Source: Escherichia phage vB_Eco_mar004NP2. Taken from it: a stretch of 64,000 nucleotides of DNA. Location of the stretch: the sequence record OR896837.1; one strand, given 5' to 3'. Positions 16,141-55,831 of the stretch are shown here, one piece after another (positions within the stretch are counted from its first letter, which is position 1; every line of letters starts with the position of its first letter). Both the position numbers and the translations under genes were made by a program. Under the pieces are notes generated by a model. The model made no database searches. It had not been told where the DNA came from and was given only the letters and a program-made list of their open reading frames with translations.

Positions 16141-16147
16141 AATTGTT

Positions 16148-17190: not shown

Positions 17191-17216
17191 AGCATATTTC
17201 TCGTGCTAGTTTAATT

Positions 17217-17523: not shown

Positions 17524-17529
17524 AGAATT

Positions 17530-17619
17530 TGGCGGAAGAAGTGGGAATCGAACCCACAAGGCTATATTTCAAACCGACAGATTAGCAATCTGCTGCAATA
17601 CCGTTATGCTATTCTTCCG
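17530..17619 (-). tRNA. tRNA-Ser (anticodon GCU)
   Basis: Acceptor GGAAGAA/TTCTTCC + G + CCA; loop TTGCTAA; long variable arm; perfect T-arm GTGGG-TTCGATT-CCCAC. Confidence 0.65.
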
Positions 17620-17638
17620 AATTTATAAATATATTATA

Positions 17639-18157: not shown

Positions 18158-18254
18158 TATTTGATCCCCTAGTTAGTTGTATAAATACATTATACAGAAA
18201 AGCCCTGCGTTCTCCAGGAAACACAGGGCTTACTTCGAATATTACGCGTGGATA

Positions 18255-19203: not shown

Positions 19204-19237
19204 ATATTTCCTTTGTTTTAGTTACAGTTAATAAAAT

Positions 19238-19312
19238 TGGCCGAGGTGACAGGATTCGAACCTGCATAAAGGAATTTAGAAGACTCCTGCCTATCCCTTA
19301 GACTACACCCCG
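19238..19312 (-). tRNA. tRNA-Arg (anticodon UCU)
   Basis: Acceptor CGGGGTG/CACCTCG + G + CCA; anticodon arm GGAGT-CTTCTAA-ATTCC; T-arm GCAGG-TTCGAAT-CCTGT. Confidence 0.6.
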
Positions 19313-19814
19313 TTTAAGTATTTTTAAGAACTCTCGTAAAAACTCTTAAAAATACAGACGATACCGGGAGAGTCATAAGTCTCACTCATTAAGTATTTCA
19401 AGACAAAATACAGTAACGTCTATTATTTTCCAGTTTAAGTCAGGGTGACTTAGTGGTTATGTCCTGCGGTATATTGAGGACTCGGTTAGGCTTGGGGTCA
19501 TGACTTCCCACCTTTTGCTGCTACTCAACAGGAGTTATCGCGAATTACCTGTGCTATTGTGCACCATTAGTGACATCTCTCATGTCAGCATTTCCCACTT
19601 TGTGGATAGCTTGAAAAACTACTCCGATATGGAGAAAGAACTTCACTACCCTAGAATACCTTCTAAAGTTCTTCTTTAGCCTAGGCATAGTTAAATCGTA
19701 ATAAAACTATTCAGCAGACTGGTTGGTTAGTCTGGAACCAACTACCGCGTGGTTTAGGCAGTGCGCAACTAACCTCGGAAGCTTTTACGTTAAAAGCATC
19801 AGTTATCCAGTTCT

Positions 19815-19890
19815 TACCGACCGTAGGATTCGAACCTACATCTTCCACCAGTTACGGCTTGATAATACCAATTATACTAGGACGGCAGTG
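19815..19890 (-). ncRNA. tRNA-like element, possible tRNA pseudogene
   Basis: Perfect T-arm GTAGG-TTCGAAT-CCTAC and partial acceptor pairing; no anticodon stem could be folded; no CCA. Confidence 0.3.
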
Positions 19891-21818: not shown

Positions 21819-22058
21819 TTTGAGTTCTTTAAACTTTTCAGCTTTCATACTTAAATGTTGATCTTTGAAGTTGTGTCGGTAATATCAACGACGCTTTGTT
21901 CTTACGTGTCAGCTTAAAAGGCTGGTGTAATAAACATAATCTCCAATAGATTATACTTTATAGTATGGTCAGCGGTCTTATTTAACCTCGTATTTCAACC
22001 GCTGCTGCGAGGTAAGATGCTTGGGCTTTCGTCTACCGATTTACTAGCTTTTAAATTA

Positions 22059-22697
22059 TTACTCTACTTCAATGAAGGTAGAGGCGTTAGACTCGGACAG
22101 AACAAAGTCAACATTTGTTGCAAAGTCCTGGTATTCCTCGTCATGCTGCTTAATCAGCTTCTCCAGTTCCAGCGGATCAATCAAGAATGGAGTATTCTTG
22201 AGTTCCAGCAGGTTGAGCTGCATTTTAACTTCATCTTCGGAAGTTTTCTTATCGCGGGTAGCCATGCTATCCTGCAAACGCTCATATTTAGCATCAAACT
22301 GTGCTTTCTGCGTATTAAATTTAACCGTAGCGGCATGGAACTGCTTACGCATGTTAGCCAGCAGTTGAGCTTTAAGCTCCATAGAACGCTTAGCTTCAAT
22401 TGCTTCCGCAACAGTCATCTTACGAGAGCCAATCTCAACTACTGTTTCCGCATTGCTCTTAATCAGAGCAGCTTTGATACGATCACGCTGAGACATCATA
22501 TCCAGCAGAGACTGGAAATCTGTCTTAATACGCTCAGATAAATCATCTACTTCGATTGCAGCGCCAACTACAACCTTATTTTTATCCTTACCTTCACCAA
22601 CAGCGATCAGAAGCTGTTGTTCAGTAGCTTTACGGATTTTAGCTTCCAGAGATTTGATAGTTGCTAGAGCGCGAGTTTTAGAGATACGAGTAGTCAT
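22059..22697 (-). CDS. hypothetical coiled-coil protein (212 aa)
   Basis: ORF. Confidence 0.5.
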   Translation of the reverse strand: MTTRISKTRALATIKSLEAKIRKATEQQLLIAVGEGKDKNKVVVGAAIEVDDLSERIKTDFQSLLDMMSQRDRIKAALIKSNAETVVEIGSRKMTVAEAIEAKRSMELKAQLLANMRKQFHAATVKFNTQKAQFDAKYERLQDSMATRDKKTSEDEVKMQLNLLELKNTPFLIDPLELEKLIKQHDEEYQDFATNVDFVLSESNASTFIEVE

Positions 22698-22750: not shown

Positions 22751-22933
22751 TTACAGACCAATTGCCAGCAGAGTGCGCAGAACAGTATCATTACTGTTAT
22801 CAATTTTAGGATTAGCACGATTTAGCAGATCAAAGATTTTCTGGATACCTGATTGACGTTCAGCCATACGACGGATACCCAGATTACGAGTAGCTTTCTT
22901 ACCATTTTTACGAACATTTTTAGATACTGGCAT
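22751..22933 (-). CDS. small basic protein (60 aa)
   Basis: Lys/Arg-rich N-terminus. Confidence 0.35.
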   Translation of the reverse strand: MPVSKNVRKNGKKATRNLGIRRMAERQSGIQKIFDLLNRANPKIDNSNDTVLRTLLAIGL

Positions 22934-24011: not shown

Positions 24012-24227
24012 TCACTTGCCCAGCAGTTTAAGGATATTTTCCATAATAGTTTGGGCAGATTTTTCACTCTTGTTGGTTTCAGCCAACTTTAAAGCGAGTT
24101 CTTCCTGCTGTTTCTGAATATCCGCCGCAATTTTTTGATCAGCCTCAATACGAGCTTGAAGCTCATCAGTGATAGTGGTAAAGGAAGCAACGATTTCAGT
24201 AACGGAACGTGGTTTCTTAGAGAACAT
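24012..24227 (-). CDS. hypothetical protein (71 aa)
   Basis: ORF. Confidence 0.4.
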   Translation of the reverse strand: MFSKKPRSVTEIVASFTTITDELQARIEADQKIAADIQKQQEELALKLAETNKSEKSAQTIMENILKLLGK

Positions 24228-24291: not shown

Positions 24292-24807
24292 TTACTTCGC
24301 TTTACGTTTACGAGCTGGTTTAGCAGATTTACGAGCAGAATCACCCGTGAACTTAATGCCTACACCGTAACATAGAGCACGAACATTATCTTTGCTATAC
24401 TCTACACCGAAGATATTTGGCTTAACAGAACCAAACTGTCCACGAGTATCACGAAATACATCTGCCGTTGGTTTGCGTTTCTGGTTAACTGCTTTCTCGT
24501 AATCTTTCATGGCCATGCCATTACGAGGGAACAATTCTGCTCCAGCATTGAAACTCAGTGCTACTGGAACAGATTTGTGACCATAACCCTGTACATAGGT
24601 CACAAGGCGGGCTACAGAACGAGTGGTATTCTTAGCCTTCGGCTTTTGACGAATCGAAGCCGGACGATTCAGTGCCTGTGCAGCTTGAGCATCAGTAGGG
24701 TGCTTGCGCAGGTGGCGTTCCAGACGAGCTTTGCGGTTAGCCTCAGTCTGAGGGAAAGTTTTAACTGCCGGGGCTGCTTGAGTTTTTGCGTTTTTCTGCT
24801 TAGCCAT
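24292..24807 (-). CDS. basic, probably nucleic-acid-binding protein (171 aa)
   Basis: Lys/Arg-rich termini. Confidence 0.45.
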   Translation of the reverse strand: MAKQKNAKTQAAPAVKTFPQTEANRKARLERHLRKHPTDAQAAQALNRPASIRQKPKAKNTTRSVARLVTYVQGYGHKSVPVALSFNAGAELFPRNGMAMKDYEKAVNQKRKPTADVFRDTRGQFGSVKPNIFGVEYSKDNVRALCYGVGIKFTGDSARKSAKPARKRKAK

Positions 24808-42342: not shown

Positions 42343-42753
42343 ATGACTACTCCAACTCAGTGGACTGATGAACTGTTCGAAAAAATGTCTTCCGAATACG
42401 TTGCTCGTATGGAGCAATTCCCAGAGGATGAACGTCCGGGTGTTAGCATGGAAATTGTTAGCGAAATTGCCCAGGAAAATGGTGTAACTCCGAACGGTTT
42501 TCGTATGAAGCTAACTAAAGCAGGTGTGTATATCAAGAAAGCTGCTGGCTCTGCTTCTAAATCTAGCGCATCTACTGGAGAAAAAGCTTCTGGTGGTTCT
42601 CGTACTTCCAAAGCCCAAGCTCATGCCGATCTTCGTTCAGCATTCTCTGATGCTGGCTTAGCACCAGATTTTCTGGATGATGCAATTATCGACAAACTGA
42701 CCGGTAAAGCGGCTGCTCATCTGGCAGAAGCAATCCGAGCTATCACTAAGTAA
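42343..42753 (+). CDS. hypothetical protein (136 aa)
   Basis: ORF with RBS AAGGAAA. Confidence 0.5.
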   Translation: MTTPTQWTDELFEKMSSEYVARMEQFPEDERPGVSMEIVSEIAQENGVTPNGFRMKLTKAGVYIKKAAGSASKSSASTGEKASGGSRTSKAQAHADLRSAFSDAGLAPDFLDDAIIDKLTGKAAAHLAEAIRAITK

Positions 42754-43532: not shown

Positions 43533-44504
43533 ATGACTAATGTAAAAGACTTTATTAAACGTTGCCAAGAAGCATATTACCAGGGAATGTCTTTAATCTC
43601 TGACGAAGAATATGATCGTCTGATTAAAAGATTTCCGTTAGAAGAAGAGATCGGGCCTAAGGGCGATATTCCACATCTGTATCGTATGTATTCTTTACAG
43701 AAAGTTTATTATAATCGTGGAGATAAACCTCCGTTTAACCCATTAGGTCAGGTAGAAACTGATAAGTTAGATGGTTGTGCGATTTCTCTGTTATATATTA
43801 ATGGCGAATTTGTTCAAGCATTAACTCGTGGTAATGGCATTCTAGGGAATGATGTCACAAGCAACGTAAGATTGCTGAACATCCCTAAAAAGATTTCCCA
43901 AAAAGTACCTACTCAAATCACTGGTGAAGTTCTAATTACAAAAGAAGTAGAAAATAAACGTAACTTTGCCTCTGGTGCTATTAACCTCAAGGATAGAGAT
44001 GATTTCGTACAACGTATCGGGGAAGGTGGTTTAATCTTCGTTGCATATGGTATCCAGTGTTCTGCTGAATCTGTAGGTATTACAGAAGCGTATTTAAAAG
44101 ATATGCTTTGGCTGGAGAATGAGAACTTCTTAACAGTTGTTAATGTGCGTTCCTTCTTTAAATGGATTCCGACGGACGGTAAAGTTGTTCGTATCAATGA
44201 CAATAACAAATTCTTCCGAGAAGGCTGGACTAATAAATTCCCTCGTGGAGCATTCGCTATTAAAGAGGATGAAGAAGGCGAAATTACAACTCTTACTAAA
44301 GTTGAATGGCAGGTAGGGGCTTCTGGTAAAGTAACTCCAGTTGGTTATTTTGAACCGGTAATTATTGATGATGCTACAATTGTTAAAGCGACTCTTAATA
44401 ACGTTGATTATATTAACTCTCTCGATCTAGAGATCGGTTGCCAGATTCGAGTGATTCGTGCTGGTGGTGTAATCCCGTGTATAGTAGAGCGAGTATACGA
44501 TTAA
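43533..44504 (+). CDS. NAD-dependent DNA ligase, adenylation-domain subunit (split ligase, part A)
   Basis: KLDG adenylation motif and OB-like region; C-terminal Zn/HhH/BRCT modules are in the next gene. Confidence 0.7.
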   Translation: MTNVKDFIKRCQEAYYQGMSLISDEEYDRLIKRFPLEEEIGPKGDIPHLYRMYSLQKVYYNRGDKPPFNPLGQVETDKLDGCAISLLYINGEFVQALTRGNGILGNDVTSNVRLLNIPKKISQKVPTQITGEVLITKEVENKRNFASGAINLKDRDDFVQRIGEGGLIFVAYGIQCSAESVGITEAYLKDMLWLENENFLTVVNVRSFFKWIPTDGKVVRINDNNKFFREGWTNKFPRGAFAIKEDEEGEITTLTKVEWQVGASGKVTPVGYFEPVIIDDATIVKATLNNVDYINSLDLEIGCQIRVIRAGGVIPCIVERVYD

Positions 44505-44554
44505 TACATAACCCTTTGCTACCCATCTACCATATCGGAATTATAAAGTGGTTA

Positions 44555-44583
44555 TTGACATTTTCGCCGCTTAGGTATATACT
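44555..44583 (+). promoter_or_regulatory. sigma70-like promoter in ligase intergenic region
   Basis: TTGACA, 17 bp, TATACT. Confidence 0.5.
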
Positions 44584-44646
44584 ATTATCATTCAGTTGAG
44601 GGATAGAAAGTTATGGCGAGGGTAAGCAAAGTTAGTTAAAATTGTA

Positions 44647-44676
44647 GTTGCTAAATGCTTAAATACTTGCTATAAT
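44647..44676 (+). promoter_or_regulatory. sigma70-like promoter
   Basis: TTGCTA, 18 bp, TATAAT. Confidence 0.45.
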
Positions 44677-44703
44677 ATTTATATAAATTGATAAGGAAGA
44701 AAT

Positions 44704-45486
44704 TTGATGAAAATCGAAATTCCAACACAATGTCCCTCTTGTGGTTCTAAGCTAGATCTTGTCAACGGACAATTATTCTGTCGGAATAAGTCCAACTGTC
44801 CAGCGCAATCAAGTAAGTTAATTGAGAACTTCTGTTCAAAAATGAAGTTAAAGGGCTTTGGCCCAAAAACTATTGAGAAGCTGGAGCTGACGAAGATTTC
44901 AGAACTATTTTACCTAACCGAAGAAGATTTGGTTAGAGCCGTGGGTAGCAAGGTTGCCGCTAAGTTAATTAGCGAATTAAATACTAAAGTTCGCGGAGAC
45001 ATTGACTTTGGTTCAGTTCTCGGTTCTTTAGGAATCCCTCTAATTGGAGAGGTTGCAGCAAAGAAATTATCCCAAAATTACACTAGCTTCCATGATGTGA
45101 AGGCTGACGGCAAGGCTGGAGAAAATTACAAAGCCTGGCTAAATTCCCCACAAGGCAAGGATGTTATCGAACTACCGTGGAAATTTTCAACTGGTATTAA
45201 GGGCACTAAAGCTGACGTCATCATTACAGATGAATTAGTTGCCCAGCCAAATGGAATCGCGGTATGTATTACCGGATCTTTGCAAGATTTTGCAAATCGA
45301 ACGGATGCAACAAACTATTTAGAAGGTCTAGGGTATACGGTTAAGAAATCCGTTACTAAAGACGTCAAATACCTAATCTGTGAGGATGAATCAAAACGTT
45401 CTTCCTCATCTTATAAGAAAGCCGAAACGAATGGGATAGAAATCCTGTCGATTAAAGAACTATTGGAGAAAAATAATAATGTCTAA
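44704..45486 (+). CDS. NAD-dependent DNA ligase, Zn-finger/HhH/BRCT subunit (split ligase, part B)
   Basis: CPSCGSKL...CRNKSNCPAQ zinc finger, helix-hairpin-helix-like GFGPKT, C-terminal BRCT-like region. Confidence 0.7.
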   Translation: MMKIEIPTQCPSCGSKLDLVNGQLFCRNKSNCPAQSSKLIENFCSKMKLKGFGPKTIEKLELTKISELFYLTEEDLVRAVGSKVAAKLISELNTKVRGDIDFGSVLGSLGIPLIGEVAAKKLSQNYTSFHDVKADGKAGENYKAWLNSPQGKDVIELPWKFSTGIKGTKADVIITDELVAQPNGIAVCITGSLQDFANRTDATNYLEGLGYTVKKSVTKDVKYLICEDESKRSSSSYKKAETNGIEILSIKELLEKNNNV

Positions 45487-46246
45487 ACTGAACTGGAACG
45501 TAGAAGGTGTAACCGAGTCTCTGAAAGCAAAAGCCACTGCTCTGGGTGTTGCTGTAATCTCTCAAGAACAAGTAGCTGCTATCGCTGCTGAACTGGCTGC
45601 TGAAACTGGCAAAGACGTTACCGCTCGCTCTGTTGGCTCTAAGCTGCGTAAAGAAGGTTTTGAAGTACAAAAAGCTAACGAAGTACAGAAATCCCCGTGG
45701 ACTCCTGAGCAGGAAGCTGAACTGGTTGATTTCCTGAACGCTCATGCTGGTCAGTATACCTATGCTGAAATCGCTGCTGCTGTAGCTGGTGGTCAATTTG
45801 GTGCTAAGCAGGTACAGGGTAAGATCCTGAGTCTGGAAATGACCGCCTCTGTTAAACCAACTGAAAAAGCTGCTGCTGTTCGTTCCTTCACTCCTGATGA
45901 AGAAACCGATTTTGTTAATCAGGTTGTTGCTGGGGCTACTATTGAAGCTATCGCTGCTCACTTCGGTCGTAATATCAAGCAGATCCGTGGTAAAGCTCTG
46001 AGCCTGCTTCGTGAAGGTCGTATCGCTGCTATGCCGGTACAGGAAACTTCAAGTGCTAAAACTCGTGAAGATCTGTTAGAAGGTCTGGATCTGGCTAACA
46101 TGACTGTTGCTGAGATCGCTGAGAAAACTGGTAAATCTGAGCGCGGTGTTAAATCTATGCTGTCTCGTCGTGGTCTAGTTGCTAAGGACTATGATGGTGC
46201 TGCTAAGCGTGCTAAACTGGATGCAAAAGCTGCGGCTGCTGAATAA
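45479..46246 (+). CDS. Ala-rich protein with four internal repeats, putative abundant DNA-binding protein
   Basis: Repeated ~50-aa units ending in basic helices; codon usage strongly biased to host-preferred codons unlike neighbours. Confidence 0.45.
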   Translation: MSKLNWNVEGVTESLKAKATALGVAVISQEQVAAIAAELAAETGKDVTARSVGSKLRKEGFEVQKANEVQKSPWTPEQEAELVDFLNAHAGQYTYAEIAAAVAGGQFGAKQVQGKILSLEMTASVKPTEKAAAVRSFTPDEETDFVNQVVAGATIEAIAAHFGRNIKQIRGKALSLLREGRIAAMPVQETSSAKTREDLLEGLDLANMTVAEIAEKTGKSERGVKSMLSRRGLVAKDYDGAAKRAKLDAKAAAAE

Positions 46247-46264
46247 TCTGGTAAATTAAACCTA

Positions 46265-46297
46265 AGGGGAGGGGGCTATGCTCCTTCCCCTTTTTTG
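46265..46297 (+). terminator. rho-independent terminator
   Basis: GGGGAGGGGG...CCTTCCCC hairpin + TTTTTT. Confidence 0.5.
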
Positions 46298-46329: not shown

Positions 46330-47802
46330 ATGACCTTGTTTAACGTGCAAGCTGTAGTGTTGAAGATGCTTCTTGCTTCTGAACAGAAGCAAATAGCATT
46401 GGAAACATTCTCAAAACTGCATAAAGATCATTTTAATGACGCTTTCTCCTCAATTTACCAAGCCGTCCAGAATTATTATAAAAAATATAACACAATGCCG
46501 TCCATTGACGCACTTATGCTTGAAGCTAATAGGAACGCCCGCCTTTCTCAAGCTCTAGTCGTCTTAGCTAACACTCAAATTCCAGAAGTGAGCATGGAAC
46601 AGGCACTTGAAGTCCTAGAGGCCGAATATACACAAGATTTATTCCTAAAGCTTCTAGAAACAGATGTGCTTCAAGATTTAACAATGCTGGATCAGGGAGA
46701 AATTCTCAACCGAGTTGCCTCCCTTCACTTAAAATTAGAAGAGAAAGTAACGAATACTGGAAAAGTATTCAACGCAGATAACATGCGTATTTTCCAGAGA
46801 GAAGAAGATACCAAACTGAACTTAATCGCTCTTGGTATTTGTAATGAGTTCGACGCTCAAATTGGTTTAGCTCGCACAGAAACGTTACTGCTTGGTGGTT
46901 GGCGTGGTACTGGTAAATCCATTATCTGTTCAAACATACAGGTTCAGCAATATTTGAATGGAGATATTGCTCCATACTTCTCAATTGAGATGAAAGAACA
47001 TGAAGTATTTAGACGTAATCTAGCCATGTTAGCTGGTGTATCAGCATTAGCAATGCGTAATAATACTCTAGAAGGTGCAGCTCTGTTGAGATTGGCCAGA
47101 ACTAGAGCTAGGATGTTCAACGGGGGTGAGGAGCTTTTCGATAACTTCGTTAAACAGTATACAATGGCTAAGATGAGTGATTTCTACGATATGGAGAGTA
47201 AGCTAATAGAAGGATATGAGCTACATACTCCTATGATTATTGTTTATGACCCTGAGCTGTCCATTACAACAGTTGACGTAGAATTAAATAAATTAGTTGC
47301 TAGATACGGAGATAAAGTTACAGTAGCTTTACTGGACTATATTAACCAAACCCGACTTCCAGACTCTAAAACCATTGATATGTATGACTGGAAAGAACAG
47401 ATGGTTGTCAGCTCGTCTTTCAAATCTATCTGCCAGAAACATAACGTGGCTGGTGTAGCTCCTTACCAGATTGATCAAGATGGTAGAACACGTATGTCAA
47501 AGGGGATTCTTGATTCCGCAGACATGGCTGCTAATCTTAATGCTGCAAAAGCTGATAATGGTCAAGGTGCTATTATGTTTGACTTCGTTAAGACCCGTTC
47601 TTCTGATAGCGTGAAGTTTATGCCTAAAATGAACTGGGAAACCCTGCGGATGGATAACACTATCAACCTAGCAATGGAAGATATATCTCAAATGGAAGCT
47701 GAGTTCGTTATCCCTATTGAGAAGGATAAGCCGGCTCAATCTAAACGTGCTAAGAAAGACAAAGCTGAAAATTCAACAGGTGAACAGGCCAGCGATATAT
47801 GA
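46330..47802 (+). CDS. RecA-fold replicative helicase-like ATPase (DnaB-like)
   Basis: Walker A GGWRGTGKS; directly upstream of and coupled to the primase; start uncertain (ATG 46330 or TTG 46336). Confidence 0.5.
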   Translation: MTLFNVQAVVLKMLLASEQKQIALETFSKLHKDHFNDAFSSIYQAVQNYYKKYNTMPSIDALMLEANRNARLSQALVVLANTQIPEVSMEQALEVLEAEYTQDLFLKLLETDVLQDLTMLDQGEILNRVASLHLKLEEKVTNTGKVFNADNMRIFQREEDTKLNLIALGICNEFDAQIGLARTETLLLGGWRGTGKSIICSNIQVQQYLNGDIAPYFSIEMKEHEVFRRNLAMLAGVSALAMRNNTLEGAALLRLARTRARMFNGGEELFDNFVKQYTMAKMSDFYDMESKLIEGYELHTPMIIVYDPELSITTVDVELNKLVARYGDKVTVALLDYINQTRLPDSKTIDMYDWKEQMVVSSSFKSICQKHNVAGVAPYQIDQDGRTRMSKGILDSADMAANLNAAKADNGQGAIMFDFVKTRSSDSVKFMPKMNWETLRMDNTINLAMEDISQMEAEFVIPIEKDKPAQSKRAKKDKAENSTGEQASDI

Positions 47803-48689
47803 GTAGAATAACAGAACTACTTGATCTGAAAGGCATTGAGTATAAAGACACAGGTGGGGACATCCTCATCTGTTGTCTCAATCCAGATCATGACGATAAA
47901 CATCCAAGTTTGCGTATTGATCCTGAAACAGGTATTATGCACTGCTTGAGTTGTGGCTTCGGTAAAGGTATACCGAGCATTTACCATTATTTTAATGAGA
48001 CTCAGTACCGACAGTCTCCAAGACTATCGCAGGTACGTAAAAAGATTTCAGAGATTAGGAATGGATCTACGAATCTTGCAATTCCTGAATCTGCTTACCT
48101 TTTCGAAGGTGATTTCCGAGGTATAAGTTCTAAGACCTTGAAGAAATATTTTGCTTTCCAACACCAAGCAGATTGGGAGGGCAGAATTGTATTCCCAATC
48201 ACAGATGCTGTTGGACGCAATATCCTATTTTTGGGTCGTTCTATAAACAGTTCTGCCCCTCCTAAATACTTAGTAAAACCAAAACAAGTTTCACCACCGA
48301 TTTTCCCTGTACGATATAATACTCCAGTTCTTATTCTAGTTGAAGGTATCTTTGATATGCTGAACCTAGAGGATAATGGTATAGACTATGCTTCTTGCTG
48401 CTTTGGTACACATCAGTTTACTTCGGATAACATTGCAGATAAGTTCAGTCCTTATATTATTGCTGGTGTAAAAGTTGTTGTTATCTTACTAGATAATGAT
48501 GCTTCTGGTAATAAAACTGCACAAGCATTGGCTAAGCTAATTCGTACAAAAACGCGTTTAACACCTGTAGTTGCTAACTTTCTCCTACCTGAAGGCAAAG
48601 ATCCAGGTGATTTAAACAAAGATGAAATTGATATGTTAGCAAAACGTATTGAAATTTTAGTTGCTGAATCGCTTAAAGATTTGGTATAA
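47799..48689 (+). CDS. DNA primase (DnaG-like)
   Basis: Zn-finger CLNPDHDDKHPSLRIDPETGIMHCLSCG; Toprim EGIFDMLNL...DNDASG. Confidence 0.75.
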   Translation: MSRITELLDLKGIEYKDTGGDILICCLNPDHDDKHPSLRIDPETGIMHCLSCGFGKGIPSIYHYFNETQYRQSPRLSQVRKKISEIRNGSTNLAIPESAYLFEGDFRGISSKTLKKYFAFQHQADWEGRIVFPITDAVGRNILFLGRSINSSAPPKYLVKPKQVSPPIFPVRYNTPVLILVEGIFDMLNLEDNGIDYASCCFGTHQFTSDNIADKFSPYIIAGVKVVVILLDNDASGNKTAQALAKLIRTKTRLTPVVANFLLPEGKDPGDLNKDEIDMLAKRIEILVAESLKDLV

Positions 48690-48715
48690 TAGTCCTAAAT
48701 AACTGAGGAGCTACT

Positions 48716-49045
48716 ATGGAATATGTATATATTTATGCGGATGTTCCAGTGTATGATAGTGTAACACACAAAGAGGTTAAACTAGAGCGGTTTACAACAC
48801 TGGAGTCCCTTAATAAACGAAAGAATTTCCATTTATTTGGTGATCCTAAATTACCTGCATCTTATATTTACTTTAAAGTAAAAGATACAGGTCAAGAGGT
48901 ATACCTAACATATGATTGGGCTGTTGTAGAAAATACTGAGCAATCTATGAAAGCGCTAGATGCTTTTCTGCGTATAGATGAAGAATTTCGGGTACTAGAA
49001 AAGCAGCGCAATGAAATGCGTAAATTACTTCACACCTATAAATAG
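48716..49045 (+). CDS. hypothetical protein (109 aa)
   Basis: ORF with RBS GAGGAG. Confidence 0.45.
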   Translation: MEYVYIYADVPVYDSVTHKEVKLERFTTLESLNKRKNFHLFGDPKLPASYIYFKVKDTGQEVYLTYDWAVVENTEQSMKALDAFLRIDEEFRVLEKQRNEMRKLLHTYK

Positions 49046-49048
49046 TAT

Positions 49049-49077
49049 TTGCTATTATCCCAATATTTTGATATAAT
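49049..49077 (+). promoter_or_regulatory. sigma70-like promoter upstream of DNA polymerase
   Basis: TTGCTA, 17 bp, TATAAT. Confidence 0.55.
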
Positions 49078-49138
49078 ATATTGGTAAGTTAGAGAAGAAA
49101 CACTGAAGTTATACTTACTTACCAAGAGGAGATTAAAT

Positions 49139-51706
49139 TTGAAAATCGCAGTAGTTGATAAAGCTCTAAATAACACTCGTTATGATAAACATTTCCAGCT
49201 ATACGGCGAGGAAGTTGATGTATTCCATATGTGTAACGAGAAGTTATCCGGTCGTTTGCTCAAAAAGCATATTACTATCGGGACTCCGGAAAACCCATTT
49301 GACCCGAATGATTATGATTTTGTTATACTGGTAGGTGCCGAGCCTTTCCTGTACTTTGCAGGTAAGAAAGGCATTGGTGACTATACTGGTAAACGTGTAG
49401 AGTATAATGGATATGCTAACTGGATTGCGAGTATCAGCCCCGCCCAGTTACACTTTAAGCCTGAAATGAAACCAGTTTTCGATGCAACAGTAGAGAATAT
49501 CCACGATATTATCAATGGTCGTGAGAAGATTGCAAAAGCTGGTGATTACCGTCCTATTACTGACCCTGACGAGGCGGAAGAATATATCAAGATGGTGTAT
49601 AATATGGTTATCGGACCTGTCGCATTCGACTCCGAAACCTCAGCACTATACTGTCGAGATGGTTATCTGCTTGGTGTTTCTATGTCTCACCAAGAGTATC
49701 AGGGTGTATATATCGATTCTGATTGTCTCACAGAGGTTGCAGTATATTATCTCCAGAAAATTCTGGATAGTGAAAACCACACTATTGTTTTTCACAACTT
49801 GAAGTTTGATATGCACTTTTATAAGTACCATCTGGGACTTACTTTTGATAAAGCACATAAAGAACGCAGGCTCCATGATACCATGTTGCAGCATTATGTT
49901 CTAGATGAGCGTCGTGGTACTCATGGCTTGAAATCTCTAGCAATGAAGTATACCGATATGGGCGACTATGACTTTGAACTAGATAAGTTCAAGGAGGATT
50001 ACTGCAAAGCACATAAAATCAAGAAAGAAGATTTCACCTATGATTTAATTCCGTTTGATATTATGTGGCCTTACGCTGCAAAAGATACCGATGCCACCAT
50101 ACGTTTGCACAACTTCTTCTTATCAAAAATTGAGAAGAATGAAAAACTTTGCAGTCTGTATTATGATGTCCTAATGCCTGGTTGTGTATTTCTCCAGCGT
50201 GTTGAGGATCGTGGTGTACCTATTTCTATTGATCGTTTAAAAGAAGCTCAGTACCAGTTAACCCATAATCTGAATAAGGCTCGTGAGAAACTGTATACTT
50301 ATCCAGAAGTCGTTCAGCTAGAAAAAGACCAGAACGAGGCGTTTAACCCAAACTCTGTTAAGCAACTGCGTGTTCTTCTGTTTGATTATGTTGGCTTAAC
50401 TCCAACAGGTAAATTGACGGATACTGGGGCAGACTCTACAGATGCAGAAGCTCTGAATGAACTGGCTACGCAGCATCCAATTGCTAAGACTCTACTAGAG
50501 ATTCGTAAGCTGACTAAGCTGATCTCTACTTATGTTGAGAAGATTCTTCTGAGTATTGATGCAGATGGTTGCATTCGTACTGGTTTCCATGAACATATGA
50601 CTACTTCTGGTCGTCTGAGTTCTTCTGGTAAACTGAACCTGCAACAGTTACCTCGTGATGAATCTATTATCAAGGGTTGTGTAGTAGCTCCTCCCGGGTA
50701 TCGTGTAATTGCATGGGACTTAACAACTGCGGAAGTTTATTATGCTGCTGTTCTATCTGGTGATAGAAATATGCAACAAGTATTTATCAACATGAGAAAT
50801 GAACCTGATAAATACCCTGACTTCCACTCTAACATCGCACACATGGTATTTAAACTCCAATGCGAGCCTCGTGATGTTAAAAAGTTATTCCCAGCTCTGC
50901 GTCAGGCTGCTAAAGCAATCACCTTTGGTATTCTGTATGGTTCTGGCCCGGCTAAAGTAGCTCATTCTGTTAACGAAGCTCTTCTGGAACAGGCTGCTAA
51001 GACAGGTGAACCGTTTGTAGAGTGTACTGTTGCGGATGCGAAGGACTATATCGAAACTTACTTCGGTCAGTTCCCGCAGCTTAAGCGTTGGATTGATAAG
51101 TGTCACGACCAGATCAAGAATCATGGATTTATCTATAGTCACTTTGGTCGTAAACGTCGTCTGCATAATATCCATTCCGAAGACCGTGGTGTTCAGGGTG
51201 AAGAAATCCGTTCTGGATTTAACGCAATCATTCAGTCTGCTTCTTCCGACAGTCTCCTTTTAGGTGCTGTAGATGCAGATAATGAGATCATTTCTCTTGG
51301 CCTAGAACAAGAGATGAAGATTGTTATGCTAGTTCATGACTCCGTAGTTGCTATTGTTCGTGAAGACTTGATCGACCAATACAATGAAATCCTGATTCGT
51401 AATATTCAGAAAGACCGTGGTATTAGTATTCCTGGCTGTCCGATTGGTATTGATTCAGATTCTGAAGCAGGAGGTTCTCGTGACTATTCTTGTGGTAAGA
51501 TGAAGAAACAGCACCCATCAATCGCTTGTATTGATGATGATGAATATACTCGTTATGTCAAGGGTGTATTACTTGATGCAGAGTTCGAGTATAAGAAACT
51601 AGCTGCAATGGATAAAGAGCATCCAGATCATAGCAAGTACAAGGATGATAAGTTTATTGCTATATGTAAAGATTTGGATAACGTGAGAAGGATTCTCGGT
51701 GCTTAA
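49139..51706 (+). CDS. DNA polymerase, family A, with 3'-5' exonuclease domain
   Basis: Exo motif AFDSETSALY, motif B RQAAKAITFGILYG, motif C LVHDS; TTG start after AAGAGGAG RBS. Confidence 0.9.
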   Translation: MKIAVVDKALNNTRYDKHFQLYGEEVDVFHMCNEKLSGRLLKKHITIGTPENPFDPNDYDFVILVGAEPFLYFAGKKGIGDYTGKRVEYNGYANWIASISPAQLHFKPEMKPVFDATVENIHDIINGREKIAKAGDYRPITDPDEAEEYIKMVYNMVIGPVAFDSETSALYCRDGYLLGVSMSHQEYQGVYIDSDCLTEVAVYYLQKILDSENHTIVFHNLKFDMHFYKYHLGLTFDKAHKERRLHDTMLQHYVLDERRGTHGLKSLAMKYTDMGDYDFELDKFKEDYCKAHKIKKEDFTYDLIPFDIMWPYAAKDTDATIRLHNFFLSKIEKNEKLCSLYYDVLMPGCVFLQRVEDRGVPISIDRLKEAQYQLTHNLNKAREKLYTYPEVVQLEKDQNEAFNPNSVKQLRVLLFDYVGLTPTGKLTDTGADSTDAEALNELATQHPIAKTLLEIRKLTKLISTYVEKILLSIDADGCIRTGFHEHMTTSGRLSSSGKLNLQQLPRDESIIKGCVVAPPGYRVIAWDLTTAEVYYAAVLSGDRNMQQVFINMRNEPDKYPDFHSNIAHMVFKLQCEPRDVKKLFPALRQAAKAITFGILYGSGPAKVAHSVNEALLEQAAKTGEPFVECTVADAKDYIETYFGQFPQLKRWIDKCHDQIKNHGFIYSHFGRKRRLHNIHSEDRGVQGEEIRSGFNAIIQSASSDSLLLGAVDADNEIISLGLEQEMKIVMLVHDSVVAIVREDLIDQYNEILIRNIQKDRGISIPGCPIGIDSDSEAGGSRDYSCGKMKKQHPSIACIDDDEYTRYVKGVLLDAEFEYKKLAAMDKEHPDHSKYKDDKFIAICKDLDNVRRILGA

Positions 51707-52196: not shown

Positions 52197-53545
52197 AGGT
52201 TGTTATATCTAATAAAGCCTATTTCAAGCCCGATGATGAACTTTGGGATTATTGTAGTAAGCAAACCACTTATCACATTGAGACAATGACTAGTAAATAC
52301 CCTATTATGTATAAGAATAGTGGTGTTGTTGCCAAAGAGATTAAGTGGATTCCTATTACGCGTCTGGACTTACTAGATGCTAAAGGAGTAAAATACGAAT
52401 TAGTCGATAAACGCACATTAGCTCCGGTAGATATACCAAAACCTAAGTTCAAGCTGCGTGAAGAAGACCAGCTCCCAATATATGAAGAGTGTGATGATAC
52501 CTGTATTATTAATGGTAAGCCTGGATTTGGCAAAACTATCCTAGCCCTTGCACTTGCGTATAAATTTGGCCAGAAAACTCTGGTAATTTGTACTAACACA
52601 TCTATTCGTGAGATGTGGGCAGCAGAAGTTCGTAAATGGTTTGGATTTGAGCCAGGTATTATAGGTTCTGGGAAATACAATATTGATCCACCAATTGTAG
52701 TCAGTAATATTCAAACAGTGAATAAACATGCGAATAATCTTTCTAAAGTATTCGGTACTGTTATAGTTGATGAAGTTCACCATTGTGTGGCTACAACTTT
52801 CATTAACTTCCTAGAAATATCATGTGCTCGCTATAAGATTGGGCTATCTGGAACATTAAAACGTAAAGATGGTCTACAAGTTATGCTCAAAGATTTCTTT
52901 GGATATAAGATCTTTAGCCCACCGGTTAATAATACTGTTGCACCTACAATCCACAGGTACTCCGTACCAGTTGAGTTGTCTGGAAACCAAAACGTACCGT
53001 GGGCATTACGTGCTAATGATGTGTATAATCATCCTGAATATCGAGAAACTATTATAAACCTAGCACATTTATATGTGAATATGGGACATAAAGTACTCAT
53101 TGTAAGTGATAGAACAGAGTTAATCCAAACAGTACTAGAAGCTCTTGCACAACGTGGTGTTACAACATATGAAATTATAGGGTCAACTCACTTGGATGAC
53201 CGATTAAAAATTCAGGAAGATATAGCAAAAGGTGGGCCTTGTGTACTTGCAGCAGCTCAAAGTATCTTCTCTGAAGGTATTTCCCTTAATGAGCTGTCTT
53301 GTTTAATAATGGGAAGCCTCATTAATAATGAATCTCTCATTGAACAGCTTGCAGGACGTGTTCAACGTATTGTCGATGGTAAACTCGACCCTATTGTTGT
53401 AGATCTAATTATGAAAGGTGGCACTGGACTAAGGCAGGCTTCTGGACGTATGGCAGTATATCATAACAATGGGTGGAAAACTATTACCATGACTCCTGAG
53501 AAAGCAGTTCAATTAGCTAAAATTGCATTTGGCAACAGCTCATAA
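52193..53545 (+). CDS. SF2 DNA helicase
   Basis: Walker A GKPGFGKT, Walker B VIVDEVHH, C-terminal helicase domain. Confidence 0.75.
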   Translation: MKVVISNKAYFKPDDELWDYCSKQTTYHIETMTSKYPIMYKNSGVVAKEIKWIPITRLDLLDAKGVKYELVDKRTLAPVDIPKPKFKLREEDQLPIYEECDDTCIINGKPGFGKTILALALAYKFGQKTLVICTNTSIREMWAAEVRKWFGFEPGIIGSGKYNIDPPIVVSNIQTVNKHANNLSKVFGTVIVDEVHHCVATTFINFLEISCARYKIGLSGTLKRKDGLQVMLKDFFGYKIFSPPVNNTVAPTIHRYSVPVELSGNQNVPWALRANDVYNHPEYRETIINLAHLYVNMGHKVLIVSDRTELIQTVLEALAQRGVTTYEIIGSTHLDDRLKIQEDIAKGGPCVLAAAQSIFSEGISLNELSCLIMGSLINNESLIEQLAGRVQRIVDGKLDPIVVDLIMKGGTGLRQASGRMAVYHNNGWKTITMTPEKAVQLAKIAFGNSS

Positions 53546-53558
53546 ATGATGTATAATA
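53530..53558 (+). promoter_or_regulatory. sigma70-like promoter
   Basis: TTGGCA, 17 bp, TATAAT, then conserved ATAAATTTGAGAGAGA leader. Confidence 0.45.
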
Positions 53559-53629
53559 ATATACATAAATTTGAGAGAGAAAGTTTCGGATTGATAAGAA
53601 AGTCCGAAGCAGAAAAATAAAAATTTTAG

Positions 53630-53659
53630 TTGCTAAATTCTCTCGAAATCTAGTATAAT
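53630..53659 (+). promoter_or_regulatory. sigma70-like promoter
   Basis: TTGCTA, 18 bp, TATAAT. Confidence 0.45.
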
Positions 53660-53766: not shown

Positions 53767-54051
53767 ATGCTCATAGAGCCTGATGCTCACCAATTATTGG
53801 TCGGTTCCTCATTCATTTTGAATGAGTCAACAATAGTTGATAATCCAAATAAATTGTCTAATAGACAACTGGCAGAATATCTAGGAATTTTAAGTCTACG
53901 AAATTATGCCGAATACAAGTTTACAAACGATCCTAGTTTGAACATACAATATGTTCCAGTATGGATACCACGTTTAGTAATCGACACTAACCCACTAATC
54001 GCAATTAACAAATCGAAATTAATCTTTAAAGAGGAAATAAAATATGGCTAA
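53767..54051 (+). CDS. hypothetical protein (94 aa)
   Basis: ORF. Confidence 0.35.
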   Translation: MLIEPDAHQLLVGSSFILNESTIVDNPNKLSNRQLAEYLGILSLRNYAEYKFTNDPSLNIQYVPVWIPRLVIDTNPLIAINKSKLIFKEEIKYG

Positions 54052-54817
54052 GTCTTGGGGCGAAACTACTGGCGGTTCTAACGATAAAATCGAATTCCTG
54101 AAGTTCAACAACGGTATCACTCGTGTCCGTATCGTTTCTGGTGTTCTTCCACGTTATGTCTATTGGCTGACTAATAAAGAGGGTAACGTAGCTCCTTTTG
54201 AATGTCTCCGTTTTAACCGTGACAAAGAGAGCTTTGTTCGTGGTAAAGCTGATCCGGTTCATGAGATGGGCTTCTTCGAGAAAGAGCTGGATAAAGACGG
54301 TAATCGTGTTCCGCTGAAACCGAAGAAAAACTATATCGCTTTTGTTATCGACCGTTCTGATAACAAACTGAAAGTAATGGAAGTCAAGGCTACTATTCTG
54401 AAAGGCATCCAGTCTATCATGAAGCAGTTGAATCTGGCAACTCCGTTTGATATTGATATTTCTATCGAGAAAAAAGGTAAAGGTTTCGATACTGAGTATG
54501 ATGTACAGCAGATTGCTGCTATGCAGTTCCAGATTAAGCTGCAAGATCCTAACAGTGCAGAATCTAAGCAATATGCTGCAGATGTAGATCTGATCGGTGA
54601 AGCTATGTGTGATGAAGATGGCGACATCATTAAGTTCGAAAAAGTTCCTTCTCTGGAACAAACCTATCCGGTTCCTACCTATGAAGAGCAGAAAGAAGCA
54701 ATTCAAGCCTTCATGGAGGGTCGTGAGAATAAAGATGATGATGCCAAATCTGGTAATAGCAATGCAGGCTCCCAGAAAGGTATTGACACAGAAGCTGCAA
54801 GCGATCTGGACGACTAA
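54044..54817 (+). CDS. putative ssDNA-binding protein with acidic C-terminal tail
   Basis: Highly expressed-type codon usage; acidic tail ...EAASDLDD; sits inside the replication/recombination module. Confidence 0.4.
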   Translation: MAKSWGETTGGSNDKIEFLKFNNGITRVRIVSGVLPRYVYWLTNKEGNVAPFECLRFNRDKESFVRGKADPVHEMGFFEKELDKDGNRVPLKPKKNYIAFVIDRSDNKLKVMEVKATILKGIQSIMKQLNLATPFDIDISIEKKGKGFDTEYDVQQIAAMQFQIKLQDPNSAESKQYAADVDLIGEAMCDEDGDIIKFEKVPSLEQTYPVPTYEEQKEAIQAFMEGRENKDDDAKSGNSNAGSQKGIDTEAASDLDD

Positions 54818-54853: not shown

Positions 54854-55831
54854 ATGAGAATATTATTTAGTGCTGATCATCATATTAAGCTGGGCCAAGA
54901 TAAGATACCCAAAGAATGGCAGAAGCGTCGCTTCCTGATGCTAGGAGAACGGTTAAATGATATATTCCATAATCATAACTGTGATTTGCATATTATTGGT
55001 GGTGATTTATTTGATCATTCCGACCCGTCGTCGGAAGAAGTAGAACTTCTAGAAAAATTTATGTCTAGGCTAGATCATATAGGAATGGTATTTACAGGTA
55101 ATCATGAATTAATAACTAAGACTATTTCATGCCTATATCATTATGCAGGAGTTATTAATAAAGTAACGAGTGGTAAGTGGGAAGTAATTACCAAACCATA
55201 TCGTTCCCCTGAATTTGATATTGTTCCATATGACGAAATCCATAAATCTAAGTGGAAACCTCCTGTATCAAAACTATGTTTCACGCATGTTCGTGGTGAA
55301 ATCCCTCCACATGTAAAACCAGAAATTGATCTAACTAAGTACAACTGTTATGATACTGTAATTGCTGGCGATTTACATTCTTATACTAATAGCCAGACTA
55401 TCGGATCTACTAGACTTCTCTACCCAGGATCTCCATTAACTACATCGTTCCATAGAGAACGCACAAAAGGTACAAATGGTTGCTTTATCATTGATACCGA
55501 CACATTAAAAGTAGAATGGATTGAACTAGGTGATTTACCACAACTGATTCGTAAAACAATCGGAGCAGGTGAAGAGATGGAACCTAGTGATTATGATCGT
55601 GTAGTCTATGAAGTTACTGGTGACGTTGTTCAATTAAAGTCTATTAAAGACTCTGATTTGTTAGATAAGAAGATTAACCATCGAGTTACTAAAGACGCTA
55701 AGTTAAATCTTGTTGATCTTGATATGTTAGGGGAACTTGAACTTTACTTCCGTGAAGTCGAGAAGCTGTCTCAAGGCGACATTGATAGAATCTTGGCTAG
55801 AGCTGCGAAATATGTCAAAGATTACAATTAA
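54854..55831 (+). CDS. SbcD/Mre11-like nuclease
   Basis: Metallophosphoesterase motifs DHH, GGDLFD, GNHE. Confidence 0.8.
   Translation: MRILFSADHHIKLGQDKIPKEWQKRRFLMLGERLNDIFHNHNCDLHIIGGDLFDHSDPSSEEVELLEKFMSRLDHIGMVFTGNHELITKTISCLYHYAGVINKVTSGKWEVITKPYRSPEFDIVPYDEIHKSKWKPPVSKLCFTHVRGEIPPHVKPEIDLTKYNCYDTVIAGDLHSYTNSQTIGSTRLLYPGSPLTTSFHRERTKGTNGCFIIDTDTLKVEWIELGDLPQLIRKTIGAGEEMEPSDYDRVVYEVTGDVVQLKSIKDSDLLDKKINHRVTKDAKLNLVDLDMLGELELYFREVEKLSQGDIDRILARAAKYVKDYN

What the first reader, a model, noticed from the sequence alone, without database searches (positions are those of the whole stretch)
45479..46246. Two genes with sharply different, host-optimised codon usage
The Ala-rich four-repeat protein here and the acidic-tail protein at 54044..54817 use host-preferred codons (CTG, CGT, GCT, GGT, AAA) and are visibly more GC-rich in coding positions than the surrounding AT-rich genes. 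This suggests very high expression, as for abundant DNA-binding proteins, or recent acquisition.
Basis: seen in the sequence. Interest (0 to 1): 0.4.

Follow-up and report, generated by a model that had tools for sequence, protein, structure and literature searches.

The report
Codon-optimised DNA-coating genes of T5-like phage
Two early genes of a T5-like phage, the double-strand DNA-binding protein D5 and the single-strand DNA-binding protein D11, are written almost entirely in the host's fast codons because the phage needs them in bulk; this is real but ordinary biology.

Summary
The window is a T5-like phage (Tequintavirus, about 99% identical to Salmonella phage SPLA5b). Scored against 30 E. 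coli ribosomal and elongation-factor genes, 45479..46246 (D5) has a codon adaptation index of 0.747 and 54044..54817 (SSB, D11) 0.659. They rank 1 and 2 of 82 genes; the others average 0.339 (sd 0.094). Resampling synonymous codons for the same proteins from the phage's bulk usage gives 0.39 ± 0.03 (z = 13 and 10).

In the complete genome of a close relative, D5, the major head protein and SSB are the three most biased genes.

One correction: D5's third-position GC is average (0.311, rank 43 of 82). Its high GC comes from an Ala/Gly-rich protein. AAA is not enriched.

Recent acquisition is rejected. Both genes keep the same neighbours across four Demerecviridae genera and are among the most biased genes in each. 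Their favoured Leu codon differs by host group (CTG, TTA or CTA), and each phage's capsid gene shifts the same way.

D5 is predicted as four helix-turn-helix domains. SSB is a T4 gp32-like fold with a disordered acidic tail. Each gene ends a short promoter-to-terminator unit. This is known genes and a known phenomenon, so interest is low.

The parts
45479..46246 (+). D5 gene, 255 aa: Ala-rich protein of four helix-turn-helix repeats and the most codon-biased gene of the window
   Evidence: phrog_323 'transcriptional regulator, D5-like', E 1.9e-71. Pfam Sigma70_r4_2 at 29.1 bits against a cut-off of 25.7. Relatives annotate it as D5. CAI 0.747, effective number of codons (Nc) 32.2.
45494..46204 (+). 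The four HTH repeats of D5: R1 aa 6-66 = 45494..45676; R2 aa 70-128 = 45686..45862; R3 aa 133-190 = 45875..46048; R4 aa 191-242 = 46049..46204
   Evidence: AlphaFold2 helices 11-22/29-43/49-58, 76-88/95-101/109-118, 139-150/155-162/166-178 and 210-217/221-231, plus a C-terminal helix 240-254. hhalign R2-R3 probability 96%, P 1.3e-9. Repeat alignment.
54044..54817 (+). Single-strand DNA-binding protein gene (D11 in T5 nomenclature), 257 aa: second most codon-biased gene of the window
54728..54814 (+). Disordered acidic C-terminal tail of SSB (aa 229-257), ending in a conserved EAASDLDD
   Evidence: pLDDT below 50 for residues 229-257. E250 and L255 are invariant and A251 nearly invariant across 37 homologues.
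46264..46292 (+). Intrinsic terminator 18 nt after the D5 stop codon
   Evidence: 13-bp stem with 8 G-C pairs, followed by TTTTTT. A hairpin plus T-run sits at the same place in Klebsiella, Proteus and Vibrio phage relatives.
54823..54842 (+). Intrinsic terminator 6 nt after the SSB stop codon
   Evidence: 8-bp stem with a GCTTCGGC loop, followed by CTTTTT. Conserved in position in the three distant relatives.
44555..44676 (+). Two sigma-70-like promoter matches between ligase A and ligase B, upstream of the ligB-D5 unit
   Evidence: TTGACA-17-TATACT (11 of 12) and TTGCTA-17-TATAAT with an extended TG. These are consensus matches only. No + strand match lies inside ligB.
44704..45486 (+). NAD-ligase subunit B: low-bias upstream cistron whose stop codon overlaps the D5 start by 8 nt
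   Evidence: CAI 0.297. The sequence ...AATAATAATGTCTAA shows the overlap. Relatives annotate it as ligase subunit B.
45465..45468 (+). Shine-Dalgarno GGAG of D5, followed by a 10-nt A/T spacer
   Evidence: Read directly from the sequence. The 65-nt initiation region folds weakly, -3.5 kcal/mol, z +1.1 against shuffles.
53529..53659 (+). Sigma-70-like promoter matches in the 220-nt gap after the D10 helicase, upstream of the orf94-SSB unit
   Evidence: TTGGCA-17-TATAAT (11 of 12) and TTGCTA-18-TATAAT. Consensus matches only.
53767..54051 (+). Small upstream cistron (94 aa, phrog_4258, function unknown): low bias, overlapping the SSB start by 8 nt
   Evidence: CAI 0.199. phrog_4258, E 2.7e-47. 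The sequence ...AAATATGGCTAA shows the overlap.
54031..54034 (+). Shine-Dalgarno GAGG of SSB, 9 nt before the ATG
   Evidence: Read directly from the sequence. The initiation region folds weakly, -6.0 kcal/mol, z +1.1.
45452..45961 (-). Antisense ORF inside D5 (169 aa): not a gene but a by-product of the codon bias
   Evidence: D5 has only one each of TTA, CTA and TCA in frame. Shuffling its synonymous codons gives open antisense stretches of 141 +/- 35 codons, and 10.7% of shuffles reach the observed 190. The open frame is absent from the Proteus and Vibrio orthologues.
54026..54706 (-). Antisense ORF inside SSB (226 aa): not a gene but a by-product of the codon bias
   Evidence: SSB has no TTA, CTA or TCA in frame, so the antisense frame is open in every shuffle. 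The open frame is absent from the Proteus and Vibrio orthologues.
42343..42753 (+). Third strongly biased early gene, a 136-aa 'DNA binding protein' (phrog_1725); same class of signal
   Evidence: CAI 0.607. phrog_1725, E 1.7e-50. The Vibrio-phage orthologue (annotated DNA binding protein) ranks 2 by CAI; in the Proteus locus the rank-2 ORF sits at the syntenic position but is unannotated and was not shown to be the orthologue.

Best explanation
The two genes encode the phage's bulk DNA-coating proteins. D5 is an array of four helix-turn-helix domains that binds double-stranded DNA. D11 is a T4-gp32-like single-strand DNA-binding protein with an acidic tail that probably recruits partner proteins.

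Both are needed in amounts proportional to the replicating phage DNA rather than in catalytic amounts, so they are among the most heavily translated messages of the infection. Selection on translation has replaced codons read by rare host tRNAs (AGA, TTA, CTA, ATA, GGA) with codons read by abundant ones (CGT, CTG, GGT, GCT, ATC, TCT, ACT). The AT-rich third-position composition of the phage was kept.

Each gene is the last cistron of a short unit: promoter, then a low-bias gene, then the high-bias gene, then an intrinsic terminator. Each has its own Shine-Dalgarno sequence and a weakly folded start region.

Shown here: the outlier status, its independence from amino-acid composition, its sharing with the capsid gene, its conservation, and the differing codon sets in phages of different host groups. 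Inferred: the actual protein amounts (supported for D5 by one published proteome), promoter activity, and translation being the selected trait.
For: - CAI rank 1 and 2 of 82 genes, z 4.3 and 3.4.
- Resampling that keeps the protein sequence: z 13.1 and 9.9.
- In the full genome of the 99%-identical relative, the three highest CAI values are D5 0.745, major head protein 0.726 and SSB 0.633.
- A principal-component analysis of relative codon usage, which uses no host information, has a first axis (26% of variance) that correlates with E. coli CAI at r = 0.91. Its extremes are the head protein, D5 and SSB. The loadings are +CGT, +CTG, +GGT, +TCT, +ATC and -AGA, -TTA, -ATA, -AGG, -GGA.
- Orthologues in Klebsiella, Proteus and Vibrio phages: D5 ranks 1, 1 and 3 by CAI and 1, 2 and 1 by Nc. 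SSB ranks 3 and 1 by CAI in the Proteus and Vibrio phages. The Klebsiella-phage SSB, scored separately, has CAI 0.757, second only to D5's 0.772 in that locus.
- The preferred Leu codon differs with the host group (CTG, TTA, CTA), and Gln goes from CAG to CAA. In each phage the capsid gene departs from bulk usage the same way, with correlations of 0.52-0.88 to D5 and SSB.
- D5 has the highest fraction of identical codons at conserved residues in all three distant comparisons.
- Protein identities.
- Terminators directly after both genes are conserved across four genera.
- Literature: D5 is among the seven most abundant proteins by spectral count in phiR2-01 (PMC8624392). T5 D5 was predicted by AlphaFold3 to engage retron msDNA through an HTH motif, triggers retron-Kva2 and remodels its complex (PMC13405049). 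[quoted passage not shown] Host-preferred codons in abundant phage proteins are a documented pattern (PMC2266997).
Against: - No expression measurement was made for this phage, and none for SSB in any relative.
- Asp and Tyr codons stay phage-like in both genes (GAT 24/33, TAT 10/10) although the host prefers GAC and TAC.
- SSB's enrichment of GCT and GGT is not significant. SSB's codon conservation is unremarkable against the Proteus and Vibrio phages.
- Codon tables for highly expressed genes of Proteus and Vibrio were not measured here. 'Tracking the host' in those lineages therefore rests on agreement with each phage's own capsid gene.
- Promoters are consensus matches at about the chance frequency (44 found, 42 expected).
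Confidence: 0.85

Rival explanations
1. The two genes were recently acquired by horizontal transfer from a GC-richer donor such as the host, and still carry the donor's codon usage.
For: D5 has the highest overall GC of the window, 0.473 against a mean of 0.386. SSB's GC3 is somewhat raised, 0.398, rank 5.
Against: - D5's GC3 is 0.311, the window mean. E. coli genes have a GC3 of about 0.45-0.57.
- Its excess GC lies in codon positions 1 and 2, that is, in the amino-acid composition.
- Both genes sit in conserved order (ligA, ligB, D5, helicase ... small ORF, SSB, SbcD) in four genera and three subfamily-level lineages of Demerecviridae.
- 902 phage records hold a D5 homologue.
- The bias lies on the same axis as the capsid gene and uses different codon sets in phages of different hosts.
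Confidence: 0.02
2. The high CAI is an artefact of amino-acid composition (Ala, Gly, Glu, Val) or of the phage's AT bias happening to coincide with T-ending host-optimal codons.
For: D5 is 18% Ala. Many host-optimal codons end in T or A, which an AT-rich genome favours anyway.
Against: Resampling holds the protein sequence fixed and draws codons from the phage's own pooled usage. It gives a CAI of 0.39 +/- 0.03 against observed values of 0.747 and 0.659. The strongest shift is to a G-ending codon, CTG, from 15% to about 80%. Nc is 32 and 34 against a typical 40-55.
Confidence: 0.02
3. Codon choice is constrained by overlapping antisense genes (45452..45961 and 54026..54706, - strand).
For: Long antisense ORFs of 169 and 226 aa lie inside both genes.
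Against: Open antisense frames follow automatically from the near-absence of TTA, CTA and TCA. Shuffles that keep each gene's codon usage reproduce them: always for SSB, and in 10.7% of shuffles at the observed length for D5. The frames are closed in the Proteus and Vibrio orthologues, with longest stretches of 34-92 codons.
Confidence: 0.02
4. The bias is selected for something other than bulk translation rate. One option is timing: these early messages must be read by host tRNAs before phage-encoded tRNAs accumulate. Another is mRNA stability or avoidance of a nuclease or defence target.
For: The codons avoided (AGA, CCA) are those served by phage tRNAs present in the window, Arg-TCT and Pro-TGG. 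Both genes are early genes. The Tyr and Asp codons differ between the early genes D5 and SSB and the late capsid gene.
Against: The late capsid gene shows the same main shifts (CTG, CGT, GGT, no AGA or ATA), so timing is not needed to explain them. Other early genes on the same transcripts are unbiased: ligB 0.297 and orf94 0.199.
Confidence: 0.1

Closest known systems
Bacteriophage T5 gene D5 product (T5.118), a DNA-binding protein that affects replication and late gene expression
   Same: 98-100% protein identity to D5 entries of T5-like phages. Same position between ligase B and the DnaB-like helicase. HTH content. Same length as the 255-residue D5 studied as a retron-Kva2 trigger (PMC13405049).
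   Different: Nothing substantive; it is the same gene in a close relative. Added here: its codon bias ranks first in the genome, and it is predicted to be four tandem three-helix domains with no full-length match among solved structures.
T4 and RB69 gp32 single-strand DNA-binding protein
   Different: 16% identity. No Pfam PF08804 match for the window protein. Only one invariant Cys (C54), so gp32's Cys3-His zinc site, recalled from the literature and not tested structurally, is probably absent.
Translational selection for host-preferred codons in abundant phage proteins (Lucks et al. 2008, PMC2266997)
   Same: Host-preferred codons are concentrated in the most abundant products. The signal is significant after controlling for amino-acid content and GC.
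   Different: That study emphasised head and tail proteins over non-structural ones. Here two non-structural early proteins equal or exceed the major head protein.

Membership tests
T5 D5 protein family (phrog_323) | Full-length sequence match to the family profile | tested here: met
   phrog_323, E 1.9e-71, residues 1-253. 726 homologues, the best at 98% identity.
T5 D5 protein family (phrog_323) | Conserved position between NAD-ligase subunit B and the DnaB-like helicase | tested here: met
   Same order in the window and in Tequintavirus, Sugarlandvirus, Novosibvirus and Thalassavirus records.
T5 D5 protein family (phrog_323) | Helix-turn-helix DNA-binding domains | tested here: met
   Pfam Sigma70_r4_2 at 29.1 bits against a cut-off of 25.7, plus weaker HTH and Myb matches on the other repeats. 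The AlphaFold2 model has four three-helix domains, pLDDT 92.9.
T5 D5 protein family (phrog_323) | Binding to double-stranded DNA; effect on replication and late transcription | not testable with these tools
   Known only from the literature on T5 (reference cited in PMC12630848; PMC13405049).
gp32-like SSB (Pfam PF08804; T4 and RB69 gp32) | OB-fold core superposable on gp32 | tested here: met
gp32-like SSB (Pfam PF08804; T4 and RB69 gp32) | Sequence match to the Pfam family | tested here: not met
   No PF08804 hit at E up to 1. No PDB sequence hit with the family profile. Only a 29%-identical homologue, P0157, carries PF08804.
gp32-like SSB (Pfam PF08804; T4 and RB69 gp32) | Zinc site (Cys3-His) in the core | tested here: inconclusive
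   The protein has two Cys, and only C54 is invariant in 37 homologues. The site therefore looks absent, but no structural alignment of the site was inspected.
gp32-like SSB (Pfam PF08804; T4 and RB69 gp32) | Disordered acidic C-terminal tail | tested here: met
   pLDDT below 50 for residues 229-257. Conserved ...EAASDLDD end.
Phage SSB family phrog_1607 (T5 D11) | Full-length profile match and position upstream of the SbcD/SbcC-like genes | tested here: met
   phrog_1607, E 6.6e-106. Gene order conserved.
Highly expressed, translationally selected gene class | Codon adaptation far above the genome's other genes, beyond what amino-acid composition gives | tested here: met
   Ranks 1 and 2 of 82. 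Resampling z 13.1 and 9.9.
Highly expressed, translationally selected gene class | Same direction of bias as a protein of known high abundance in the same genome | tested here: met
   The major head protein, D5 and SSB are the three extremes of the first principal component. Departures from bulk usage correlate at 0.52-0.88 in three phage lineages.
Highly expressed, translationally selected gene class | Bias follows the host's preferred codons when the host changes | tested here: inconclusive
   The preferred Leu, Gln and Pro codons differ between the E. coli/Klebsiella, Proteus and Vibrio phages. Ribosomal-gene codon tables for Proteus and Vibrio were not obtained.
Highly expressed, translationally selected gene class | Measured high protein abundance | not testable with these tools
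   Literature only: D5 is among the seven top proteins by spectral count in phiR2-01 (PMC8624392). No data for SSB.
Recently acquired (alien) gene | Synonymous-site composition unlike the resident genome | tested here: not met
   D5 GC3 0.311 against a window mean of 0.308. SSB 0.398, within the window range.
Recently acquired (alien) gene | Patchy presence among relatives or a variable location | tested here: not met
   Present in the same gene order in all four genera examined. 902 phage records hold a homologue.

The most novel reading that the evidence does not exclude
D5, an early non-structural protein, is made in capsid-protein-like amounts and acts as a phage 'chromatin' protein. In this reading its beads-on-a-string array of four HTH domains coats the replicating double-stranded phage DNA. 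Together with SSB and the third biased DNA-binding protein at 42343..42753, it would form a stoichiometric DNA-coating set whose size can be read from codon bias alone. Its abundance would also explain why defence systems such as retron-Kva2 use it as a sensor target. The evidence here does not exclude this, but it rests on codon bias, one proteome and predicted structure.
Probability: 0.3. Interest if true: 0.35.

Novelty: already known. Interest (0 to 1): 0.15.

Why it matters
It matters little beyond good annotation. The analysis shows that codon bias in this phage is a clean read-out of expression demand, and that it is not restricted to virion proteins: two early DNA-coating proteins match the major head protein.

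Three practical consequences follow:
- CAI or Nc can flag stoichiometric proteins among the many unknown T5-like genes. Several biased ORFs of unknown function are listed under things noticed.
- Strongly biased genes keep their antisense frame open and can be annotated on the wrong strand. One probable case was seen in a GenBank relative.
- The very high predicted abundance of D5 fits its recently reported role as a trigger sensed by a retron defence system.

Tried and rejected
- Recent acquisition: rejected on GC3, conserved gene order and bias conserved across genera.
- Amino-acid-composition artefact: rejected by resampling.
- Antisense genes: rejected by codon shuffles and lack of conservation.
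- Sequence search of solved structures: nothing for SSB, and only marginal homeodomain-type hits for D5 (E 0.002 or weaker).
- Foldseek of the whole D5 model against the PDB: no significant full-length match (best E 0.14). This is as expected for four loosely connected small domains, and the hits were assorted HTH proteins.
- Tested whether 42343..42753 or 42790..43083 matches any solved structure, looking for the T5 PC4-like protein recalled from memory: no hit.
- Classical T5 D5 papers (PMC353123) and the Davison review (PMC4743489) are not held in the library. Details of D5 biochemistry are therefore not quoted.
- Supplementary proteome tables of the phiR2-01 paper are not held, so SSB abundance could not be checked.
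- mRNA folding around both start codons is weak but not significantly weaker than shuffles (z +1.1).
- The promoter scan found no more matches than chance (44 against 42.1 expected), so the promoter assignments are tentative.
- A first automatic ORF set dropped SbcD (54854..55831) in favour of a spurious antisense ORF. This was corrected by hand before the statistics.
Full report
**What the window is.** A 2-kb stretch around the finding is 99.1% identical to Salmonella phage SPLA5b and 98-99% identical to many T5-like phages of E. coli and Salmonella. The annotated relative PP429239.1 is a Tequintavirus of the family Demerecviridae. The gene order around the finding is the T5 replication cluster: ligase A, ligase B, D5, DnaB-like helicase, primase, polymerase, D10 helicase, a small ORF, SSB, SbcD-like, SbcC-like.

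**What the two genes are.**
- 45479..46246 matches phrog_323, 'transcriptional regulator, D5-like' (E 1.9e-71). Its last repeat passes Pfam's threshold for Sigma70_r4_2.
- 54044..54817 matches phrog_1607, 'single strand DNA binding protein' (E 6.6e-106). Orthologues are called D11 or ssDNA-binding protein.

**Checking the observation.**
- I built a codon adaptation index (CAI) from 30 E. coli K-12 ribosomal-protein, tufA and fusA genes (4894 codons). I scored 82 window ORFs of at least 80 aa, chosen greedily by length with one manual correction.
- D5 scores 0.747 and SSB 0.659, ranks 1 and 2. The other 80 genes average 0.339 (sd 0.094, maximum 0.608), which gives z 4.3 and 3.4.
- D5 scores above the mean of the E. 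coli reference genes themselves (0.684). Ordinary E. coli genes in the same locus score 0.22-0.53.
- Holding each protein fixed and drawing synonymous codons from the pooled phage usage gives 0.387 ± 0.028 and 0.389 ± 0.027. The observed values were never reached in 5000 draws (z 13.1 and 9.9).

**Corrections to the observation.**
- The shifts are to CTG (84% and 79% of Leu against 15% in the bulk), CGT, GGT, ATC, TCT and ACT, and in D5 to GCT (89%). They come with a near-total loss of AGA, TTA, CTA, ATA and GGA.
- AAA is not enriched (p 0.36 and 0.43).
- D5 is the GC-richest gene (0.473), but this comes from codon positions 1 and 2 (0.557; 18% Ala). Its GC3 is 0.311, rank 43 of 82, equal to the window mean. 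SSB's GC3 is mildly raised (0.398, rank 5).
- The bias is thus a choice among synonymous codons within an AT-rich third position, not a shift in GC.

**Protein anatomy.**
- An AlphaFold2 model of D5 from 55 homologues has pLDDT 92.9 and pTM 0.50. It shows four three-helix domains and a C-terminal helix.
- Profile-profile comparison shows repeats 2 and 3 are clearly homologous (P 1.3e-9). Four of the other five pairs give P of 5e-5 to 4e-4; repeats 2 and 4 give only 0.005.
- The repeats resemble Myb/homeodomain-type HTH units. No solved structure matches the whole protein.

**High expression or recent acquisition?**
- In the full genome of the relative, the three highest CAI values belong to D5 (0.745), the major head protein (0.726) and SSB (0.633).
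- A principal-component analysis of relative codon usage uses no host information. Its first axis correlates with E. coli CAI at r = 0.91, and the same three genes are at its extreme.
- Gene order is conserved in a Klebsiella Sugarlandvirus, the Proteus Novosibvirus PM135 and the Vibrio Thalassavirus River4.
- In those phages D5 ranks 1, 1 and 3 by CAI and 1, 2 and 1 by effective number of codons (Nc). SSB ranks 3 and 1 by CAI in the Proteus and Vibrio phages. The Klebsiella-phage SSB, scored separately, has CAI 0.757, second only to D5's 0.772 there.
- At conserved residues D5 keeps the same codon more often than any other orthologue pair in all three comparisons.
- The preferred codons differ with the host group: Leu is CTG in the E. 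coli and Klebsiella phages, TTA in the Proteus phage and CTA in the Vibrio phage; Gln goes from CAG to CAA. Each phage's capsid gene departs from bulk usage in the same way as its D5 and SSB (r 0.52-0.88).
- This is what translational selection predicts and what a recent transfer does not. I did not obtain Proteus or Vibrio ribosomal-gene tables, so host matching in those two lineages is inferred from the capsid control.

**Independent support from the literature.**
- Proteomics of the T5-like Yersinia phage phiR2-01 lists D5 (T5.118) among the seven proteins with spectral counts above 100, together with the major tail, tape-measure, head and portal proteins (PMC8624392).
- In a recent preprint, AlphaFold3 modelling predicts that T5 D5 engages retron msDNA through an HTH motif. 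The same work shows by co-expression and mass photometry that D5 triggers retron-Kva2 and remodels its complex (PMC13405049).
[quoted passage not shown] I could see this only as a citation.
- Enrichment of host-preferred codons in abundant phage proteins is established, although it was reported for head and tail proteins relative to non-structural ones (PMC2266997).

**Local architecture.**
- Each biased gene overlaps the stop codon of a low-bias upstream gene by 8 nt: ligase B (CAI 0.297) and orf94 (CAI 0.199).
- Each has its own Shine-Dalgarno sequence and an A/T-rich, weakly folded start region.
- Each is followed within 6-18 nt by a strong hairpin plus T-run. Terminator-like hairpins are found at the same two places in all three distant relatives despite sequence divergence.
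- Sigma-70-like matches lie in the gaps upstream of both two-gene units. Such matches are no more frequent than chance, so they are tentative.
- The upstream cistrons share the transcript but not the bias. The abundance difference is therefore presumably set at translation; this is an inference.

**Rivals.**
- An amino-acid or AT-bias artefact is excluded by the resampling.
- The long antisense ORFs (169 and 226 aa) are by-products of the lack of TTA, CTA and TCA, and are not conserved.
- A timing or mRNA-stability variant of selection cannot be excluded. It is not needed either, because the late capsid gene shows the same main shifts.
- One small oddity remains. Tyr is TAT in 10 of 10 cases in D5 and SSB, although the host and the capsid gene prefer TAC. 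The numbers are small.

**Verdict.** The 'abundant DNA-binding proteins' reading is right and 'recent acquisition' is wrong. The genes and the phenomenon are known, so interest is low.

Noticed in passing
window 15796..19886 (- strand): The tRNA block holds 8 tRNA matches by Rfam and 5 by ARAGORN. The 99%-identical relative PP429239.1 annotates more than 20 tRNAs over about 12.7 kb, and the window is about 10 kb shorter in this region.
   Followed up: partly
window 22059..22697 (-); L001 21822..22535 (+) and 21864..22502 (-): A 212-aa gene (phrog_1491, E 4e-82) has a high CAI of 0.608. In GenBank record PP429239.1 the CDS annotated at this place is the longer antisense ORF on the other strand, which matches no PHROG. 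This is probably a wrong-strand annotation caused by an open antisense frame in a codon-biased gene.
   Followed up: partly
window 42343..42753 (+); L003 3686..4093: A third strongly biased early gene: a 136-aa 'DNA binding protein' (phrog_1725), CAI 0.607, with no Pfam or PDB sequence match. A second phrog_1725 gene sits in the pre-early region of the relative (CAI 0.528). The Vibrio-phage orthologue ranks 2 by CAI; the rank-2 ORF in the Proteus locus is at the syntenic position but was not checked for homology.
   Followed up: partly
window 24292..24807 (-), 18255..18881 (-), 24012..24227 (-), 22751..22933 (-), 5263..5532 (-), 5593..6024 (-): Further genes with CAI 0.49-0.56 and no known function: DUF7022, a lipoprotein with a weak SPFH match, two small ORFs, DUF7179 and DUF7020. 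By the logic of this report they are candidates for abundant products.
   Followed up: no
window 45479..46246 and 54044..54817: Tyr is encoded by TAT in 10 of 10 cases and Asp by GAT in 24 of 33. E. coli ribosomal genes prefer TAC and GAC, and the relative's major head protein uses TAC 77% of the time. The Klebsiella-phage SSB and the Vibrio-phage D5 and SSB use mostly TAC. Small numbers; unexplained.
   Followed up: partly
window 47799..49139: The relative has an HNH endonuclease gene between the DnaB-like helicase and the primase. The window has none there, but has an extra 109-aa ORF (48716..49045) between primase and polymerase. This is local mosaicism between 99%-identical phages.
   Followed up: no
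window 43533..45486: The NAD-dependent DNA ligase is split into two genes, 43533..44504 and 44704..45486. The 200-nt spacer between them carries the two best promoter-like matches of the region. The split is shared by all four genera examined.
   Followed up: no
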